From Abditibacteriaceae bacterium (GTDB taxonomy: Bacteria > Armatimonadota > Abditibacteriia > Abditibacteriales > Abditibacteriaceae), in NCBI GenBank assembly GCA_031425655.1, contig JANPJS010000048.1, forward strand, positions 1-11,168: DNA of 11,168 nt, given 5' to 3'. Under the pieces are notes generated by a model. That model saw only the letters and a program-made list of their open reading frames with translations. It was not told the DNA's origin and did not search any database. Shown piece after piece: positions 1,516 to 9,388 of this stretch (the first letter of the stretch is position 1; each line of letters opens with the position of its first letter). Position numbers and translations under genes: made by a program.

Positions 1516-1618
1516 ATTTTAAACACAAAGGACACAAAGATCGCACAAAGGCACACAAAGAAACTGAAAATCTTTTGTGTGCCTTTGTGAAATTCTTTGT
1601 GCCCTTTGTGTTTAAAAT
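1516..1618. repeat. Palindromic element built from CACAAAG tandem units (4 per arm, ~9-12 nt period), capped by ATTTTAAA
   Basis: Left arm 1516-1560 ATTTTAAA-CACAAAG-GA-CACAAAG-ATCG-CACAAAG-GCA-CACAAAG. The reverse complement of right arm 1573-1618 is ATTTTAAA-CACAAAG-GG-CACAAAG-AATTT-CACAAAG-GCA-CACAAAA. 12-nt loop. Confidence 0.92.
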
Positions 1619-3198: not shown

Positions 3199-3741
3199 TT
3201 ACCCTTCGACGGTTTCGACCGTAATTTTTTCGTTGGTATAAATGCAAATGCTGGCGGCGATGCGCAGACTTTGCTCGGCGATGTCGCGGGCGCTCATTTG
3301 CGTGTGACGCAGCAGCGCCGTCGCCGCCGATTGCGCGTAAGTGCCGCCGCTGCCGATGGCCGCGATGCCTTCGTCGGGTTCGATGACATCGCCGTTGCCC
3401 GAAATCAGAAACATATCGGTCGCGTCGGCGACGATCATCAAGGCTTCCAAGCGGCGTAAAACGCGGTCACTGCGCCAATCTTTGGCGAGTTCGATGGCGG
3501 CGCGGCGCATATTGCCGCGATGCTGATCGAGTTTGGCTTCAAACTTTTCAAACAGCGTAATCGCATCGGCGGCGCTGCCCGCGAAGCCCGCGATCACTTT
3601 ATCGCCCGCCAATCGCCGCACTTTTCGGGCGCTGTTTTTGACGATGTGATGCTCAACTGTGACTTGCCCATCGCCGGCGATGGCGGTCTGATTATCGCGG
3701 CGCACCGCGCAGATTGTGGTGGCGTGAAAGGTAGGGAGCAT
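3199..3741 (-). CDS. hslV: ATP-dependent protease peptidase subunit HslV (ClpQ)
   Basis: [11 protein letters not shown] (catalytic Thr after a short propeptide), [48 protein letters not shown]. Confidence 0.98.
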
Positions 3742-3744
3742 AGT

Positions 3745-4101
3745 TTAAACGGTGGGGGTATCGCCCTCTTCCAAACAGTGAAGGCTCAACTCGGCTTGTT
3801 TGGAAGAGGGCGATAGCCCCGCCCCCAATTTCGCTTCAAATCGCGCGATTGAATCCCAGAGTGCGGCTTCGGGGTCAACGCCGTGAATCAACGAAAAATA
3901 CGCGATGGCGAACATCAAATCGCCGATTTTCTCGTGCGCGATTTCGGGCGCAAGCGGCGCGGATTCGCGGCCAAAATCGGTTTGCTTCAGCAAAGCGCGG
4001 CTCAGTTCGCCAAGTTGCACTTGCGCGTCGAGCAGGCTCCATTCCGGCGCGGTTTGCAGGTCGTGGCGCGCGATAAATTCTTCGAGCAGCGAGAGGTTCA
4101 T
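3745..4101 (-). CDS. MazG-like (all-alpha NTP pyrophosphohydrolase fold) protein with degenerate acidic motif and repeat-derived C-terminus
   Basis: QLGELSRALLK...EKIGDLMFAI...GVDPEAAL resembles the single-domain MazG pattern ExGE...ExGD...GVDLExAL. The last ~26 codons are encoded by the 3751-3826 palindrome. Confidence 0.75.
   Translation of the reverse strand: MNLSLLEEFIARHDLQTAPEWSLLDAQVQLGELSRALLKQTDFGRESAPLAPEIAHEKIGDLMFAIAYFSLIHGVDPEAALWDSIARFEAKLGAGLSPSSKQAELSLHCLEEGDTPTV
3751..3826. repeat. REP/REPIN-like palindromic element, copy 2
   Basis: 27-bp arms GGTGGGGGTATCGCCCTCTTCCAAACA (3751-3777) / TGTTTGGAAGAGGGCGATAGCCCCGCC (3797-3823), 2 mismatches, 19-nt loop. Same orientation as copy 1 and with the same CCCAAT flank. 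Confidence 0.92.
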
Positions 4102-4181
4102 AGGAAAGGATGAAGGATGAAGGCGGAAGGATGAAATTGGCGCGACGCACTGGACGATTCGCGGCGAGGCCGCTTTTTCAT
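4098..4181 (-). other. Putative translational-relay mini-ORF (27 aa, MKKRPRRESSSASRQFHPSAFILHPFL*) crossing the heptamer palindrome
   Basis: ATG 4181-4179 overlaps the TGA of mini-ORF MKAEG* (4195-4178), whose ATG overlaps the rbsK TGA. Its own TGA (4100-4098) overlaps the mazG-like ATG (4101-4099). Translation is not demonstrated. Confidence 0.45.
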
Positions 4182-4206
4182 CCTTCCGCCTTCATCCCTC
4201 ATCCTT
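4106..4206. repeat. Heptamer (AAGGATG) tandem-repeat palindrome, copy 1
   Basis: Left arm 4106-4136 AAGGATG-AAGGATG-AAGGCGG-AAGGATG-AAA. Right arm 4176-4206 is its reverse complement with 1 mismatch. 39-nt spacer. Contains the rbsK stop codon. Confidence 0.93.
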
Positions 4207-5121
4207 CAATTTGGCGTCTACTTCGGCGCGCGTGGGAATGGAAACTTGCGCGCCGTGTTTGGTGCAGGCGAGGGCGGCGGCGGCGTTGGCGAAGCGCACG
4301 GCGTCTTCGAGCGATTTGCCTTCGGCCAACGCGCAGCCCAGCGCGCCGGTAAAAGTGTCGCCGGCGGCGGTGGTATCCACGGCTCTTACTTTAAAACCGG
4401 GCACGCGCGTGGCGCCTACGCCGGCGGTGATGAGCGCGCCGTCTTTGCCCAGCGTCGTAATGACCGATTCGACGCCGGCTTCCAACAACGGCTTGCAAGC
4501 GGCGGCGGCGGTGGAAACATTGACTTCATCGGCGCCGGTCAGCACTAAAATTTCGGTTTCGTTAGCGACCAAAATGTCCACTTTTTCCAGCAAAGCGGGC
4601 GGCAGAATGCGCGCCGGCGCCGGATTGAGAATCACTTTGGTTTTGTGCGCGACCGCCAATTCCGCCGCGCGCAGCACGGTTTCCATCGGCGTTTCGAGCT
4701 GCAAAATCATCACTTTGGCGCTCTCGATCAGCGATTCGGCGGCGTTGACATCGGCGGGCGTGAGACGCAGATTGGCGCCGGGCGCGACCACGATTTCATT
4801 TTCGCCGTTATTGTCTACGAAAATTAAAGCCACGCCTGACGCTGTGTTCTGGTCATGCACCAGATGCGTGATGCCCAACCCGGCGTCGGCAAAAGAATCA
4901 CACGATAACGTGGCGAACATATCGTTGCCCAGTCGCGCGACAAGCTGGGTTTGGGCGCCGCATTTGGCCGAGGCGACCGCTTGGTTGGCGCCTTTCCCGC
5001 CGGGCGTGGTCACGAAATCCTGGCCTAAAATCGTCTGGCCGGGCAGCGGCAATTCACGGCAGCGCACCGTCATATCAATATTGGACGAGCCGACAACGAC
5101 AACATCACACGGAATGGGCAT
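4192..5121 (-). CDS. rbsK: Ribokinase (PfkB family), 309 aa
   Basis: VVVVGSSNIDM, PGGKGANQAVA, GENEIVVAPGAN, LNPAPA, ANETE, VDTTAAGDTFTGAL PfkB signature. ATG 5121 preferred over the ORF-track start at 5193 (AAGGA upstream; homology begins here). Confidence 0.93.
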   Translation of the reverse strand: MPIPCDVVVVGSSNIDMTVRCRELPLPGQTILGQDFVTTPGGKGANQAVASAKCGAQTQLVARLGNDMFATLSCDSFADAGLGITHLVHDQNTASGVALIFVDNNGENEIVVAPGANLRLTPADVNAAESLIESAKVMILQLETPMETVLRAAELAVAHKTKVILNPAPARILPPALLEKVDILVANETEILVLTGADEVNVSTAAAACKPLLEAGVESVITTLGKDGALITAGVGATRVPGFKVRAVDTTAAGDTFTGALGCALAEGKSLEDAVRFANAAAALACTKHGAQVSIPTRAEVDAKLKDEG

Positions 5122-5240
5122 GGCTAAAGTGTCCTTGCAAATCTGCGCCGAAATCTGTTTCGGAGCGCGTTGAGTATCGCGCGCGAGGCTCAAATCGGCA
5201 AGAATGCGAAATCAATCGCGCGGCCCGGCTGAAAAAATCG

Positions 5241-5249
5241 TAGTATATT
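5241..5249. promoter_or_regulatory. Candidate overlapping divergent -10 elements for tkt and rbsK
   Basis: TAGTATATT gives TATATT on + (5244-5249) and TATACT on - (5242-5247), in an AT-rich patch of the divergent intergenic region. No clear -35 boxes. Confidence 0.35.
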
Positions 5250-5318
5250 GATAGCGGATTTTGGAAACCTCGCGTTTTCAAGACCAAACGCCGATTCAAA
5301 GCACGGGAGCATCCTTTT

Positions 5319-7151
5319 ATGAGTGAAAATACACAAATGGAATTGTGGCAGAAAATTGCGGCGCAGTTGCGCGTGGACAGCATTCGCTGCACCACCAAAG
5401 CCGGTTCGGGGCATCCGACTTCTTCGATGTCCGCCGCCGATGTCATGGCGGTTTTGATGGAAAAATATCTGCGCTACGACTTCAAAAATCCGCGCCATCC
5501 CAACAACGACAGCCTGATTTTCAGCAAGGGCCACGCGTGTCCGGTGCTGTATGCGGCTTACAAAGCCGCCGGAGCCATCAGCGACGAAGAATTGCTGTCG
5601 CTGCGCCAATTCGGCAGCATTTTCGAGGGCCATCCGACGCCGGATATTCCCTGGATTGAAGCCGCGACCGGTTCGCTCGGACAAGGTTTATCCGTCGGCG
5701 TCGGCGATGCGCTTTCCGGCAAATTTCTCGATAAATTGCCGTTCAAAGTCTGGGTGATTTTGGGCGACTCGGAGATGGCCGAAGGCAGCGTCTGGGAAGG
5801 CTTTGAAATCGCCTCGCACTATGCACTCAACAATTTGGTGGCGATTATTGATGTGAATCGCTTGGGTCAGCGCGGCGAAACCATGCTCGGCTGGGACACC
5901 GATGTTTATAAGGCACGCGCCGAGGCGTTCGGCTGGAACGCCATCGTGGTGGACGGCCATAATTTAGCCGAAATTGACTCCGCGCTTGCGCAAGTCGAAG
6001 GCAGCAGCAAGCCGACGTGCATCATCGCGCGCACGGAAAAAGGGCACGGCGCTTCGCTGACAGCCAACAAAGACGGCTGGCACGGCAAGGCGCTTTCCGC
6101 CGAGCAAGCCCAAACCGCGATTGCCGAATTGGGCGGCGAAACGCATCTGACAATTGAAGTCAACAAGCCCGAAGATTTACAGCCCGCAACGCCGGCCAGC
6201 CAAGCCGAAGCCCTGCCGATTTACAAACTCGGCGATGTGGTCGCCACGCGCCAAGCCTATGGCGACGCGCTCAAAGCCGTCGGCGCTTCCGATTCCAGCG
6301 TCGTGGTTTTGGATGCTGAAGTCTCGAACTCGACTTATGCCGAATTTTTCAAAAAGGTCGCGCCCGAACGCTTTTTTGAAATCTACATCGCCGAGCAGCA
6401 GCTTGTCAGTGCGGCTGTCGGCTTGCAAAATCGCGGCAAAAAGCCGTTTTGCTCGACGTTTGCAGCCTTTTTCGCCCGCGCTTTCGACCAGATTCGCATG
6501 AGCGCGATTTCGCAGGCCGATATTAAATTATGCGGCAGCCACGCTGGTGTTTCGATTGGCGAAGACGGCCCCTCGCAAATGGCATTGGAAGACCTTTCGA
6601 TGTTCCGCTCGGTGCATGGTTCGACTGTGCTTTATCCGTCCGATGCCACCTCGACGGCGGCGCTCGTGCAAGCTATGAAAGACCTGGACGGCATCGTTTT
6701 CATGCGTTCGACGCGCGAGAAAACGCCGGTCATTTACGAATCCGGCGAAGATTTTCCGATTGGCGGCAGCAAAACTGTGCGCGAAGGCGATGCAGCCACA
6801 ATTATCGGCGCGGGAATTACCTTAGCCGAAGCCGTCATAGCCGCCGACCAATTGGCCGGCGAAGGCATCAAAGTGCGCGTGATTGACCTTTATTCGGTCA
6901 AGCCGATTGACGCCGCGACGATTAAAAAAGCCGCCGAAGAAACCGGGCACATCATCGTGGCCGAAGATCACTGGGCGCAAGGCGGCTTAGGCGAAGCGGT
7001 GCTGACGGCACTGGCCGAAAGCGGAATCGAAAAGATGCCGAAATACACGCATTTGTGCGTGCGCGAAATGCCCAAATCCGGCAAACCGACCGAATTGCTC
7101 GACGCCGCCGGAATTTCCGCCAAACACATCGCGGCAGCAGTCAAGGGATGA
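5319..7151 (+). CDS. tkt: Transketolase (610 aa, mammalian-like short type)
   Basis: GSGHPTSSMS, SKGHA, EGHP, ATGSLGQG, ThDP motif GDSEMAEGSVWE..DVN, WHGK, IAEQ, HAGVSIGEDGPSQM; SD GGGAG at 5305-5309. Confidence 0.96.
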   Translation: MSENTQMELWQKIAAQLRVDSIRCTTKAGSGHPTSSMSAADVMAVLMEKYLRYDFKNPRHPNNDSLIFSKGHACPVLYAAYKAAGAISDEELLSLRQFGSIFEGHPTPDIPWIEAATGSLGQGLSVGVGDALSGKFLDKLPFKVWVILGDSEMAEGSVWEGFEIASHYALNNLVAIIDVNRLGQRGETMLGWDTDVYKARAEAFGWNAIVVDGHNLAEIDSALAQVEGSSKPTCIIARTEKGHGASLTANKDGWHGKALSAEQAQTAIAELGGETHLTIEVNKPEDLQPATPASQAEALPIYKLGDVVATRQAYGDALKAVGASDSSVVVLDAEVSNSTYAEFFKKVAPERFFEIYIAEQQLVSAAVGLQNRGKKPFCSTFAAFFARAFDQIRMSAISQADIKLCGSHAGVSIGEDGPSQMALEDLSMFRSVHGSTVLYPSDATSTAALVQAMKDLDGIVFMRSTREKTPVIYESGEDFPIGGSKTVREGDAATIIGAGITLAEAVIAADQLAGEGIKVRVIDLYSVKPIDAATIKKAAEETGHIIVAEDHWAQGGLGEAVLTALAESGIEKMPKYTHLCVREMPKSGKPTELLDAAGISAKHIAAAVKG

Positions 7152-7229
7152 GGGATGAAGGCGGAGGGATGAAATTTCCGCTCCGCGCAGCGAAATGACT
7201 TCATCCTTCATCCCTCCGCCTTCATCCCT
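7144..7229. repeat. Heptamer (A[A/G]GGATG) tandem-repeat palindrome, copy 2
   Basis: AGGGATG-AGGGATG-AAGGCGG-AGGGATG-AA (7144-7173) and TT-CATCCTT-CATCCCT-CCGCCTT-CATCCCT (7200-7229). 7151-7173 pairs perfectly with 7207-7229 (23 bp). Contains the tkt stop and the next gene's start. Confidence 0.93.
7148..7198 (+). other. Putative translational-relay mini-ORF (16 aa, MRDEGGGMKFPLRAAK*)
   Basis: ATG 7148-7150 overlaps the tkt TGA (7149-7151). Its TGA 7196-7198 overlaps the downstream ATG 7195-7197. Translation is not demonstrated. Confidence 0.45.
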
Positions 7230-7707
7230 TGCTCCGTCGCCGTGGCTTCTCACCGGCAGCGCCGCGCTGTTGCTGTCGGCGCGCGGCGCGATCATGTTGG
7301 TGCATTACGAATCGTCGCCGGTTGGGCCTTACGATGAGTGGGCGTGCTGCGTGATGACGATGCGCGGGCCGCGCGTAGTGGAAATGCTGGTCACATCGGC
7401 GGATTCGGTGCGCGCCGGACGCGAAAACTGGGGCTTTCCCAAGCAATTGGCGCCTTTAAAGTGGCAGCGGCGCGGCGCGCGAGTGAGTTTCGAGTCGCCG
7501 TCCGCGATTTATCGCTTAGGCGCGTGCGGGCCACGTTTTCCAGTGCGCGTGAAATTTTTCTGTGTGCAAACATTGGACGGCGAGGACGTGCGCGTGCCGT
7601 TTGAACTCGAAGGCGCGGCACGATTGGCGTGGCGCGGGCGTCAAATCGCCGTAGTTATCGAAGATTTTGCGATGAAAGTGAGTGCGCCACAGGCGTTATG
7701 CGGGTGA
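7195..7707 (+). CDS. Acetoacetate decarboxylase family (ADC-like) protein
   Basis: APSPWLLTG, LVHYESSPVGPYDE, SVRAGRENWGFPKQLA (GRE.WG.PK motif with the Schiff-base Lys position). The first ~12 residues derive from the repeat. Confidence 0.8.
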   Translation: MTSSFIPPPSSLAPSPWLLTGSAALLLSARGAIMLVHYESSPVGPYDEWACCVMTMRGPRVVEMLVTSADSVRAGRENWGFPKQLAPLKWQRRGARVSFESPSAIYRLGACGPRFPVRVKFFCVQTLDGEDVRVPFELEGAARLAWRGRQIAVVIEDFAMKVSAPQALCG

Positions 7708-8498
7708 CTTTTCTTGGCACTGGAACCAGTTACGGCGTGCCGTTTGTCGGCTGCGATTGCGAAGTTTGCCGCTCGACAGACCCGCTCAACAAGCGTTTGC
7801 GCTGCTCGATTCTCGTGGCCGGCGATTGCCTCGAACCCGTGGAAAACGGCGAGCGCACTTTGATTTTAGTGGACACCACGCCCGATTTGCGCCAACAGCT
7901 TTTGCGTCAGCACGTTCATTACATTTCGGGCGTTTTGTGGACGCACGATCACAACGATCACATCATCGGCGTGGACGATATGCGCCCTCTCACCGACCGG
8001 CAGGGCTATATTCACGGCTGGGCCAATCAGGACACGCTGGATCGTTTGAAAAAAGTGTTCGATTATGCGTTTATTCAAGACCGCGAACGCGGCGGCTTTC
8101 CCCGCTTGACCGATCATTTGGCGCAGCCGTTCACGCCGATGGAAATGGGCGACGTGAAAATCACGCCGATTCCCATCATGCACGGACAGCGCGAAATCTT
8201 CGCGTATCGCTTCGATTGCAGCGGGCGTTCGCTGGTTTACGCCACCGATTGCTCGCGCATCCCCGACGCCTCGCAGGAAGCGATGAGCGGCGTTGACGTG
8301 CTGGTTTTGGATGCTCTGCATCAGAAACCGCATCCCACGCATTTCAACATCGAACAAGCCTGCGATGCCGTCGCGCACTTGAAGCCGGGCCGCGCTTTTC
8401 TCACGCACACCACGCATAACGTGGATTATTCCATCGTCAACTCCGACTTGCCGCCCGGCATCGAGTTGGCCTATGACGGGCTGAGCTTTGAAGTGTGA
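7698..8498 (+). CDS. MBL-fold metallo-hydrolase, PhnP-like phosphodiesterase (266 aa)
   Basis: MRVTFLGTGTSYGVPFVGCDCEVC (structural Zn site), THDHNDH (HxHxDH), MHG, YATDC, HPTHFN, LTH..H, LAYDGL. ATG 7698 overlaps the end of the upstream gene. Confidence 0.9.
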   Translation: MRVTFLGTGTSYGVPFVGCDCEVCRSTDPLNKRLRCSILVAGDCLEPVENGERTLILVDTTPDLRQQLLRQHVHYISGVLWTHDHNDHIIGVDDMRPLTDRQGYIHGWANQDTLDRLKKVFDYAFIQDRERGGFPRLTDHLAQPFTPMEMGDVKITPIPIMHGQREIFAYRFDCSGRSLVYATDCSRIPDASQEAMSGVDVLVLDALHQKPHPTHFNIEQACDAVAHLKPGRAFLTHTTHNVDYSIVNSDLPPGIELAYDGLSFEV

Positions 8499-8499
8499 G

Positions 8500-8625
8500 G
8501 CTGGATGCTGGGTTCTGGATGCTGGGTTCTGGATGCTGGATTCTGGATAGGCGACGCTTCTTATCGAGCATCGAGCATCGAGCATCGAGCATCGAGCATC
8601 AAGCATCAAGCATCAAGCATCGAGA
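8500..8625. repeat. Heptamer tandem-repeat imperfect palindrome: 7 x CTGGATG-like and 9 x ATC[G/A]AGC
   Basis: 8501-8549 CTGGATG/CTGGGTT/CTGGATG/CTGGGTT/CTGGATG/CTGGATT/CTGGATA. 8563-8625 ATCGAGC x5, ATCAAGC x3, ATCGAGA. The reverse complement of ATCGAGC is GCTCGAT, against left-arm GCTGGAT. Confidence 0.93.
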
Positions 8626-8629
8626 ACCC

Positions 8630-9388
8630 ATGAATTGCGAAACGGTTCTTATCACTGGAGGCGCCCGGCGCGTGGGGCGCGCGATTGCTCTGGCTTGCGC
8701 GCGGGCCGGGGCCAATGTTGCCATTACTTATCGCACTTCGGCTAACGAAGCGTGGGAGCTTATCGGCGAGTTGAACAATATCGGCAGCAAAACACAGCGA
8801 TTCGCCGCGTTTCAGGCCGATGTCAGCGTTGCCGCCGAGGTCGAAAAGTTGGCTGAAAGCGTATTGCAATCGTTCGATAGCGTCACGGCTTTAGTCAACA
8901 ACGCGGCGATTTTTCGGCGCACGCCGTTCGATACGCTTAGTGAAGCCGATTTCGACGATCACATCGCGGCTAACCTGAAAGGGCCATATTTGATGAGCAA
9001 AAAATTCGGCGACATATTTTTAGCGCAGGGACGCGGCAATATCCTCAATATCGCCGATATTTACGGCTTGCGACCGCTGAAAAATTATGTGCCTTACTGC
9101 GTTTCCAAAGCCGGCGTGGTCATGCTGACCGAAGCGATGGCCAAAGCGTTGGCGCCCACGGTGCGCGTCAATTGCATTTGCCCCGGCACGATTTTGCTGC
9201 CTTCGGAAGCGCAGGGCGAAGACGATGGCGAAAGCGCCGATGACGAAGCCGCGCTGCTGTCGCGCATTCCGATGCAGCGTTTGGGCACGCCCGAAGAAAT
9301 CGCCGAAGCCGCCTTGTTTTTGCTGAACGGGCCGCAATTCATCACGGGCGCGATATTGCCGGTAGACGGCGCGCAACGCTTGAAATGA
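8630..9388 (+). CDS. SDR family oxidoreductase, pteridine reductase (FolM/PTR1)-like, 252 aa
   Basis: ITGGARRVG (Arg-containing Gly motif typical of pteridine reductases), VNNAAIF, NIAD, YCVSKAG (YxxxK), PGTIL, ITGAILPVDG. Homology starts at ATG 8630; the frame is open upstream to GTG 8495. Confidence 0.88.
   Translation: MNCETVLITGGARRVGRAIALACARAGANVAITYRTSANEAWELIGELNNIGSKTQRFAAFQADVSVAAEVEKLAESVLQSFDSVTALVNNAAIFRRTPFDTLSEADFDDHIAANLKGPYLMSKKFGDIFLAQGRGNILNIADIYGLRPLKNYVPYCVSKAGVVMLTEAMAKALAPTVRVNCICPGTILLPSEAQGEDDGESADDEAALLSRIPMQRLGTPEEIAEAALFLLNGPQFITGAILPVDGAQRLK

What the first reader, a model, noticed from the sequence alone, without database searches (positions are those of the whole stretch)
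4098..4206. Three-step ATGA ribosome relay through a heptamer palindrome links rbsK to the SD-less mazG-like gene
Seen directly on the minus strand: the rbsK stop lies inside the repeat as ATGA (4195-4192). That ATG opens MKAEG*, whose TGA again overlaps an ATG (4181-4178). That ATG opens a 27-codon ORF that crosses the loop and the whole second arm and ends in a TGA overlapping the mazG-like start (ATGA, 4101-4098). The 30 nt before the mazG-like ATG are pyrimidine-rich (TTCATCCTTCATCCTTTCCT), have no SD and would be locked in a 31-bp stem. ATGA overlap is the established signature of termination-reinitiation coupling. Inference: the AAGGATG unit is a tandem SD-like/start/stop cassette that passes ribosomes through the hairpin, so the element can sit in an operon without being polar. 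I know of no description of this for such repeats.
Basis: partly seen in the sequence, partly recalled or inferred. Interest (0 to 1): 0.82.

Follow-up and report, generated by a model that had tools for sequence, protein, structure and literature searches.

The report
Heptamer hairpin with incidental ATGA chain
A hairpin built from 7-base repeats sits between two genes, and the chain of overlapping stop and start codons through it is real but is mostly an arithmetic by-product of the repeat, because most sister hairpins sit between genes without such a chain.

Summary
The three ATGA overlaps are exactly as described. Steps 1-2 are forced: any GGATGA(A/G) array yields a ladder of 5-codon ATGA-linked ORFs. 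The hairpin is one of 52 GGATGA-armed and 276 period-7 hairpins in this genome. Heptamer arms of other unit families flank 7 of 7 four-helix-bundle (23S-IVS-type) genes. Leaving out this copy, a strict chain reaches the next gene at 8 of 37 tight GGATGA junctions (expected 3.5-5.7; P 0.006-0.14 depending on the null). With a looser window it is 17 of 37 (expected 15-18). Across all unit families it is 15 of 149 (expected 15-17). Relatives carry other hairpins or nothing at this junction; one heptamer hairpin has no chain. A ribosome on the rbsK stop alone frees the downstream start in a folding model (28.8 to 4.3 kcal/mol). Best reading: an IVS-type repeat tolerated through stem melting and/or RNase III cutting, with the relay a possible side route. 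Repeat-borne relay ORFs are already described for MIRUs. This scan has noted the element class before on other DNA.

The parts
4192..5121 (-). rbsK ribokinase; its last codons and stop lie in the purine arm (start 5121 by my start model; longest ORF starts at 5193)
   Evidence: TIGR02152 339.5 bits, over cut-off 299.65
4176..4206 (-). 5' (purine) arm on the mRNA: four GGATGA(A/G)/GGCGGAA units; supplies the rbsK stop and ATGs 4202, 4195, 4181
4137..4175 (-). 39-nt loop; no cargo gene
4106..4136 (-). 3' (pyrimidine) arm; no stop in the frame read through it; ends 4 nt before the downstream ATG
4178..4195 (-). MKAEG* mini-ORF, forced by the 7-nt period
4098..4181 (-). 27-codon ORF across loop and 3' arm, ending in ATGA at the downstream start (same frame and stop as a 34-codon ORF from ATG 4202)
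3745..4101 (-). small gene with weak MazG-like match; SD-less ATGA start; orthologs are 95-98 aa, this copy 118 aa because its C-terminus runs through another palindrome (3751-3823)
7142..7231 (+). second GGATGA hairpin, between tkt and an ADC-like gene: tkt stop ATGA, then a 16-codon ORF, then ATGA at 7195 in the loop, the only in-frame start upstream of the conserved PPW-like motif
8501..8624 (+). third heptamer hairpin (other unit family) between the MBL-fold and SDR genes; a GTG overlapping the upstream stop reads in frame through it to ATG 8630

Best explanation
The feature is a gene-less copy of a heptamer-armed hairpin element whose gene-bearing relatives carry a 23S-IVS-type four-helix-bundle gene. 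It occupies the rbsK/mazG-like junction, where the two genes overlap directly in a relative without it. SHOWN: rbsK takes its stop from the purine arm; the 7-nt period then forces ATGA and MKAEG*; the pyrimidine arm lets the last arm ATG read across; the final ATGA needs only the right phase and an ATG-A start. INFERRED: the downstream gene is translated without an SD once the stem is open. The stem is opened by ribosomes terminating rbsK inside it (RNA-unfolding coupling) and/or cut by RNase III. This route serves all unit families, with or without ATG. Some ribosomes may also reinitiate along the chain, but it is a tolerated side route, not the reason the element is non-polar.
For: Forced ladder. 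Chains at chance for all families: 15 of 149 strict against 15.4-17.3, and 60 of 149 loose against 63-67. GGATGA loose 17 of 37 against 15.1-18.3; no phase or strand preference. Orthologous junction: direct TGATG without an insert in G001; a different heptamer family in G002; a non-heptamer hairpin in G003; an SD-bearing spacer in G005; a third heptamer family with no ATG and an ATGG start in L021. One hairpin between divergent TauE and esterase genes has an SD-less ATG 3 nt from the array on both sides and no upstream ORF to relay from. Opening the -20..+13 start region costs 28.8 kcal/mol free, 4.3-4.4 with a ribosome footprint on the rbsK stop, about 5 after removing the 5' arm. RNase III gene present. 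7 of 7 TIGR02436 genes have inverted heptamer flanks (read by eye; 4 of the 7 also recovered by automatic pairing). Precedents read as passages: PMC12548453, PMC4990558, PMC12721329.
Against: Strict chains are somewhat above expectation in the GGATGA family: 8 of 37 against 3.5 by re-pairing halves (P 0.006) and against 4.7-5.7 by frame shift (P 0.03-0.14); 8 of the 15 that have step 1. At window 7195 the downstream gene seems to depend on a start inside the element. The three orthologs whose start is ATGA (G000, G002, G003) all have an ORF ending there, and the tree cannot tell inheritance from repeated gain. SD-less starts close to the stem were not significantly more often preceded by an upstream stop at the stem (101 of 161 against 16 of 31, P 0.31), so unfolding is not shown either. 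No GGATGA-armed copy with a four-helix gene was seen in this genome. No expression data.
Confidence: 0.62

Rival explanations
1. MIRU-like relay kept by selection: where a GGATGA element captures the upstream stop, only copies whose mini-ORFs hand ribosomes on by ATGA overlap or in-frame fusion persist. The chain at 4195-4098 is then the main route to the downstream gene.
For: 8 of 15 step-1 junctions complete the chain against 4.4-5.7 expected (P 0.03-0.14). ATG 4195 and 4181 have SD-like pairing. The second copy in the window and orthologs at tkt-adc have frames open from inside the element. Concept known for MIRUs.
Against: The subset was chosen after the fact. 7 of 15 fail and 22 of 37 lack step 1. 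No phase or strand bias. L021 has a heptamer hairpin with no ATG chain at this very junction. Three successive reinitiations multiply losses (inference).
Confidence: 0.2
2. RNase III processing alone: the 31-bp stem is cut as in 23S rRNA intervening sequences, leaving the downstream gene on its own RNA with a short single-stranded pyrimidine leader, independent of rbsK translation.
For: The Coxiella IVS has a 28-bp stem with heptamer repeats cut mid-stem by RNase III (PMC4990558 passages). The H. influenzae hmw heptamer hairpin is cut by RNase III, raising expression (PMC12721329 passages). rnc is present. A 3' fragment has an open start region.
Against: Not testable here. Isolated stem mismatches are more often A.C than G.U on the mRNA over all families (65 against 34), although G.U leads in the GGATGA family (18 against 10). 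Fused frames read across whole elements would be cut.
Confidence: 0.13
3. The downstream gene has its own transcript starting in the loop or at the ATG, so the stem never forms on it.
For: Divergent genes flank at least one hairpin and must be transcribed from within or across it. TAnnnT shows a small peak at -13/-12 among starts genome-wide.
Against: No sigma-70-like site in 3700-5400 (0.7 expected by chance, so weak evidence). No TAnnnT in the 40 nt before ATG 4101 (sequence).
Confidence: 0.05

Closest known systems
Mycobacterial interspersed repetitive units (MIRUs; Supply et al. 1997, seen only through PMC12548453 section 11 and PMC3184786 passages)
   Same: Dispersed small repeat at start codons inside operons, with an internal ORF overlapping the next gene by -4; proposed to make insertion harmless.
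   Different: In MIRUs the review presents the coupled ORF as the rule. Here a complete chain is a minority (8 of 37), and the element is a long hairpin of tandem heptamers.
ORF-bearing 23S rRNA intervening sequences (Coxiella IVS with S23p; PMC4990558 passages)
   Same: About 30-bp terminal stem containing tandem heptamers; the same TIGR02436-type gene sits between heptamer arms at 7 loci in this genome.
   Different: This copy lies in an mRNA spacer, has no gene in its loop, and its arm unit was not seen around a four-helix gene here; RNase III cutting untested.
Intergenic heptamer repeats: Geobacter metallireducens class-3 paired sites, consensus MTYCTGA (PMC2700814 supplement legend); Beggiatoaceae TAACTGA repeats (PMC4679880 passages); Xanthomonas/Nostoc heptamers (PMC4692102, listing only)
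   Same: Tandem 7-mers in inverted pairs, or lying directly upstream of start codons in place of an SD.
   Different: Different unit. In the passages seen, these papers propose regulator binding or ribosome/S1 binding and do not link the repeats to four-helix-bundle cassettes or to relay ORFs.
Translational coupling by RNA unfolding (phage f1 VII-IX, MS2 coat-lysis, rpmI-rplT; PMC12548453 passages)
   Same: Long hairpin ending just upstream of a start; the upstream gene terminates inside it.
   Different: Here the hairpin is a dispersed repeat that differs between relatives; coupling is modelled, not measured.
H. influenzae hmw 5'-UTR (ATCTTTC)n hairpin (PMC12721329 passages)
   Same: Heptamer repeat, one base from the ATCCTTC unit here, in a long mRNA hairpin cut by RNase III.
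   Different: The hmw hairpin pairs repeats with a G-rich tract, is locus-specific and phase-variable; here both arms are mirror arrays and the family is dispersed.

Membership tests
MIRU-type relay element | Dispersed multicopy repeat with filled and empty sites | tested here: met
   52 GGATGA hairpins; empty orthologous junction in G001
MIRU-type relay element | Sits at start codons inside operons | tested here: met
   All-family hairpins: 216 of 246 between co-directional genes against 75% genome-wide; downstream ATG median 6 nt from the arm when an upstream stop is at the stem
MIRU-type relay element | Internal ORF coupled to the next gene by -4 overlap as the rule | tested here: not met
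   8 of 37 GGATGA junctions (4 of the 8 by in-frame fusion, not final overlap); 15 of 149 for all families
MIRU-type relay element | Tetranucleotide direct repeats at the insertion site | not tested
   relatives are too diverged at the junction for a clean filled/empty comparison
ORF-bearing 23S rRNA intervening sequence | Terminal stem of about 28-30 bp containing tandem heptamers | tested here: met
   Coxiella description
ORF-bearing 23S rRNA intervening sequence | Located in a 23S rRNA gene | tested here: not met
   between protein-coding genes; no Rfam match in the window
ORF-bearing 23S rRNA intervening sequence | Four-helix-bundle (S23p/TIGR02436) ORF in the loop | tested here: not met
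   39-nt loop here; present between heptamer arms of other unit families at 7 of 7 TIGR02436 loci
ORF-bearing 23S rRNA intervening sequence | Excision by RNase III | not testable with these tools
   rnc present
Termination-reinitiation coupling | -4 (ATGA) stop/start overlap | tested here: met
   three overlaps
Termination-reinitiation coupling | SD before the reinitiation codon (usual, not obligatory) | tested here: inconclusive
   SD-like pairing at 4195 and 4181, none at 4101; SD dependence varies by gene pair (PMC6728339 passages)
Termination-reinitiation coupling | Downstream translation depends on upstream translation | not testable with these tools
   needs reporters or ribosome profiling
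MazG family (downstream gene) | Profile match over the family cut-off | tested here: inconclusive
   NF007113 20.3 bits against 208, residues 53-92; no Pfam match at E<=0.1

The most novel reading that the evidence does not exclude
GGATGA is a self-neutralising unit of a widespread IVS-type mobile hairpin: because each unit is SD-like + ATG + TGA, copies that capture a host stop are filtered by selection for an unbroken ATGA or in-frame chain. They can even replace a lost start codon (window 7195). This would be a multi-step ribosome relay that also keeps a 31-bp stem melted.
Probability: 0.2. Interest if true: 0.6.

Novelty: new variant of a known kind. Interest (0 to 1): 0.3.

Why it matters
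If the relay were the working route, it would extend the MIRU idea to a multi-step chain and explain how very stable hairpins sit in operons; the data give only a weak hint of that. What stands regardless: hundreds of 7-base-repeat hairpins of many unit families fill stop-to-start gaps, displace the SD zone, differ between relatives at the same junction, and share their arm type with IVS-type four-helix-bundle cassettes. How genes behind them are translated, and how they spread, is open. This locus allows a clean test, because relay, unfolding and RNase III cutting predict different results for simple point changes.

Tried and rejected
Chain enrichment with called starts: none. That test dropped genes whose start lies in the loop, so it was redone without start calls. 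Looping-out to restore an SD or a -4 overlap: no peak at -4 after removing the stem (1 of 147); SD of 4 nt or more in 46 of 137 after looping out against 30 of 147 in place, with no proper null, and none at this locus; not pursued. G.U preference on the mRNA strand: not general. Dependence of SD-less starts on an upstream stop: not significant. Promoter scan: no site. Rfam: no match. RNA runs: none was listed. More orthologous junctions: one from metagenomes; the genome-contig scan gave four close hits, not counted as further junctions, and 76 distant partial matches. Literature searches for a four-helix-bundle plus heptamer element outside rRNA and for heptamer hairpins listed no paper describing it or a relay through it. 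The library lacks most subscription papers, Supply 1997 was not read, and the supplements of PMC2700814 were seen only as legends.

Full report
OBSERVATION. The chain is as described: rbsK stop TGA 4194-4192 inside ATGA; ATG 4195 gives MKAEG*; ATG 4181 gives 27 codons ending in TGA 4100-4098 over ATG 4101. ATG 4202 opens a further 34-codon ORF to the same stop. The arms (4106-4136, 4176-4206) are 97% complementary and fold at -73.9 kcal/mol, z -7.8; the stem ends 4 nt before the ATG. rbsK is secure. 'mazG-like' is one weak match. The closest titled hits to that protein are labelled Abditibacteriaceae (three of the top four titles).

HOW MUCH IS FORCED. In a perfect GGATGAA array every ATG is closed by the TGA two units on, and that TGA again sits in ATGA. 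Any gene that ends in the purine arm therefore shows steps 1 and 2. Only the last step is free: it needs the right phase and an ATG-A start. With my own hexamer-model gene calls (4011 genes, 79% of the genome; short or atypical genes are missed, including the ADC-like gene in this window), 1784 of 3502 ATG starts are ATGA and 2310 of 3962 starts lack an SD of 4 nt or more. A 16S 3' end with the usual anti-SD is in the assembly. At this locus a +1 shift in the loop also completes a strict chain, so 2 of 3 phases succeed.

WHAT THE ELEMENT IS. The genome holds 126 GGATGA-type arms forming 52 hairpins, 22 arms unpaired. It holds 276 period-7 hairpins of about 60 unit labels. The 5' arm has G>C in 267 of 276, a stop density of 0.090 against 0.017 per base in the 3' arm, and almost all the ATGs. 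Of the 266 short-loop hairpins, 246 have a called gene on both sides; 216 of these lie between co-directional genes, against 75% of gene pairs genome-wide (P 3e-7). At 147 tight junctions 117 downstream starts lack an SD, as expected when a pyrimidine arm fills that zone. A recalled link to TIGR02436 was tested: 7 of 7 matches are flanked by inverted heptamer arrays (by eye; 4 also by automatic pairing), none of the GGATGA unit. The GGATGA pattern occurs in 9 of 26 other genomes of the family searched.

With called starts: strict -4 chains at 4 of 16 tight GGATGA junctions including this one, against 3.0 expected when the loop phase is shifted (P 0.34); loose (-8..+7) 7 of 16 against 7.7. All families with ATG/GTG/TTG: 15 of 147 against 16.7 and 58 of 147 against 60. 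Because that test dropped starts in the loop, it was redone on frames. G000 gave 6 of 22 strict including this copy; all families gave 15 of 149 against 15.4-17.3. I added 74 hairpins from 71 loci of nine relatives (an incomplete set, as the patterns were strict and G001 was not searched for short loops), of which 16 were tight junctions, 3 with strict chains. Pooled without this copy: strict 8 of 37, expected 4.7-5.7 by frame shift (P 0.03-0.14) and 3.5 by re-pairing halves (P 0.006); loose 17 of 37, expected 15.1-18.3. Only 15 of the 37 have step 1. Of these, 3 end in ATGA at a start behind the element, 1 at a start in the loop, 4 fuse in frame and 7 fail. The ORF from the last arm ATG crosses the element in 26 of 37 sense and 27 of 37 antisense cases. 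Its phase against the native ATG is 4 in-frame, 8 in the -4 frame (2 ending in ATGA) and 11 other, of 23. So there is at most a modest excess in a subset chosen afterwards, among related genomes, and no family-wide rule.

THE SAME JUNCTION IN RELATIVES. G001 has no insert and a direct TGATG overlap. G002 has a different heptamer hairpin with a looser chain that also ends in ATGA. G003 has a non-heptamer hairpin with an in-frame ATG and a short ORF ending in ATGA. G005 has an SD-bearing spacer. L021 has a third heptamer family, no ATG in the spacer, and an ATGG start. The ATGA start is shared by G000, G002 and G003. The tree places G000 outside G001-G003 and leaves those three unresolved, so one gain plus one loss and two gains are equally short. 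At tkt-adc, four of five genomes lack a native ATG behind the 3' arm and have the frame open from the loop or first arm; G001 keeps a start next to the conserved motif. This is the best evidence that element-borne starts can matter, but it concerns start replacement, not the focal junction, where the native ATG is kept.

MECHANISM. Shown: geometry and forced ladder. Modelled: opening the -20..+13 region of the downstream start costs 28.8 kcal/mol on free mRNA, 4.3-4.4 with a ribosome footprint on the rbsK stop, and about 5 on a fragment lacking the 5' arm. Termination alone, or a cut in the stem, suffices in the model. Inferred: SD-independent initiation after melting or RNase III cutting (rnc present), with reinitiation on the arm ATGs (SD-like, -5.5 and -7.2 kcal/mol) as a possible extra. 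One hairpin between divergent TauE and esterase genes has SD-less ATGs 3 nt from the array on both sides with nothing to relay from; their transcripts may start inside it. Against my reading, SD-less starts were not significantly tied to an upstream stop at the stem (101 of 161 against 16 of 31, P 0.31).

KNOWN SYSTEMS. PMC12548453 (passages and section 11) describes MIRUs inserting at start codons with an internal ORF coupled by -4, and the unfolding model. PMC3184786 (passages) summarises MIRUs; Supply 1997 was not read. PMC10666635 (abstract) and PMC6728339 (passages) cover distance and SD dependence of reinitiation. PMC4990558 (passages): the Coxiella IVS has a 28-bp stem, heptamers and RNase III excision. 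PMC12721329 (passages): an RNase III-cut heptamer hairpin raises hmw expression. PMC4679880 (passages): heptamers replace the SD zone in Beggiatoaceae. PMC2700814 (passages and supplement legends only): paired inverted heptamer sites. It works like an IVS-type stem or an unfolding-coupled hairpin, and resembles a MIRU at this locus, but fails a defining test for each family. My searches listed no paper on the four-helix-bundle/heptamer element outside rRNA. Earlier notes of this scan report that class in many other genomes, and relay ORFs in some; these are unchecked, and I saw them.

VERDICT. Observation confirmed; interpretation partly supported. By-product chain in a junction-filling hairpin opened by melting and/or cutting 0.62; selected relay 0.2; RNase III alone 0.13; internal promoter 0.05. 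Interest 0.3.

Noticed in passing
window 7142-7231 (+); L102-L105: The tkt-adc junction holds a different repeat family in each relative. In four of five genomes the ADC-like gene has no native ATG behind the 3' arm and its frame is open from the loop or first arm.
   Followed up: partly
window 8495-8632 (+); L102: A GTG overlapping the MBL-fold gene's stop reads in frame through a whole heptamer hairpin into the SDR gene. In G003 the same family is present, the native ATG is gone and an ATG lies in the loop.
   Followed up: partly
window 3751-3823 and 1-66: A second, non-heptamer palindrome family brackets hslV-hslU; the mazG-like gene reads through one copy and is about 20 aa longer than its orthologs.
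   Followed up: partly
L204 114-677; L205 25-636: Uma2 (PF05685) genes associate with heptamer arms: one lies between inverted arms, another starts from ATGs in an unpaired GGATGA arm. Possibly a second cargo.
   Followed up: partly
G000, AGTTTTG-family hairpins: Isolated stem mismatches are A.C on the mRNA strand far more often than G.U (39 against 6); the GGATGA family leans the other way (10 against 18). Unexplained orientation bias.
   Followed up: partly
L207 783-879: Heptamer hairpin between divergent TauE and esterase genes with SD-less ATGs 3 nt from the array on both sides.
   Followed up: yes
L004 downstream of 1776; L002 downstream of the gene: In G002 and G003 the mazG-like stop is followed by another ORF before hslV; in G002 it ends in ATGA.
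   Followed up: no
G000 contig ends (C3, C20, C47, C124, C262): Long heptamer arrays run off contig ends, so copy numbers are lower bounds.
   Followed up: no
window 1516-1618: Another 25-bp inverted repeat with 9-11-nt periodic arms upstream of hslU.
   Followed up: no
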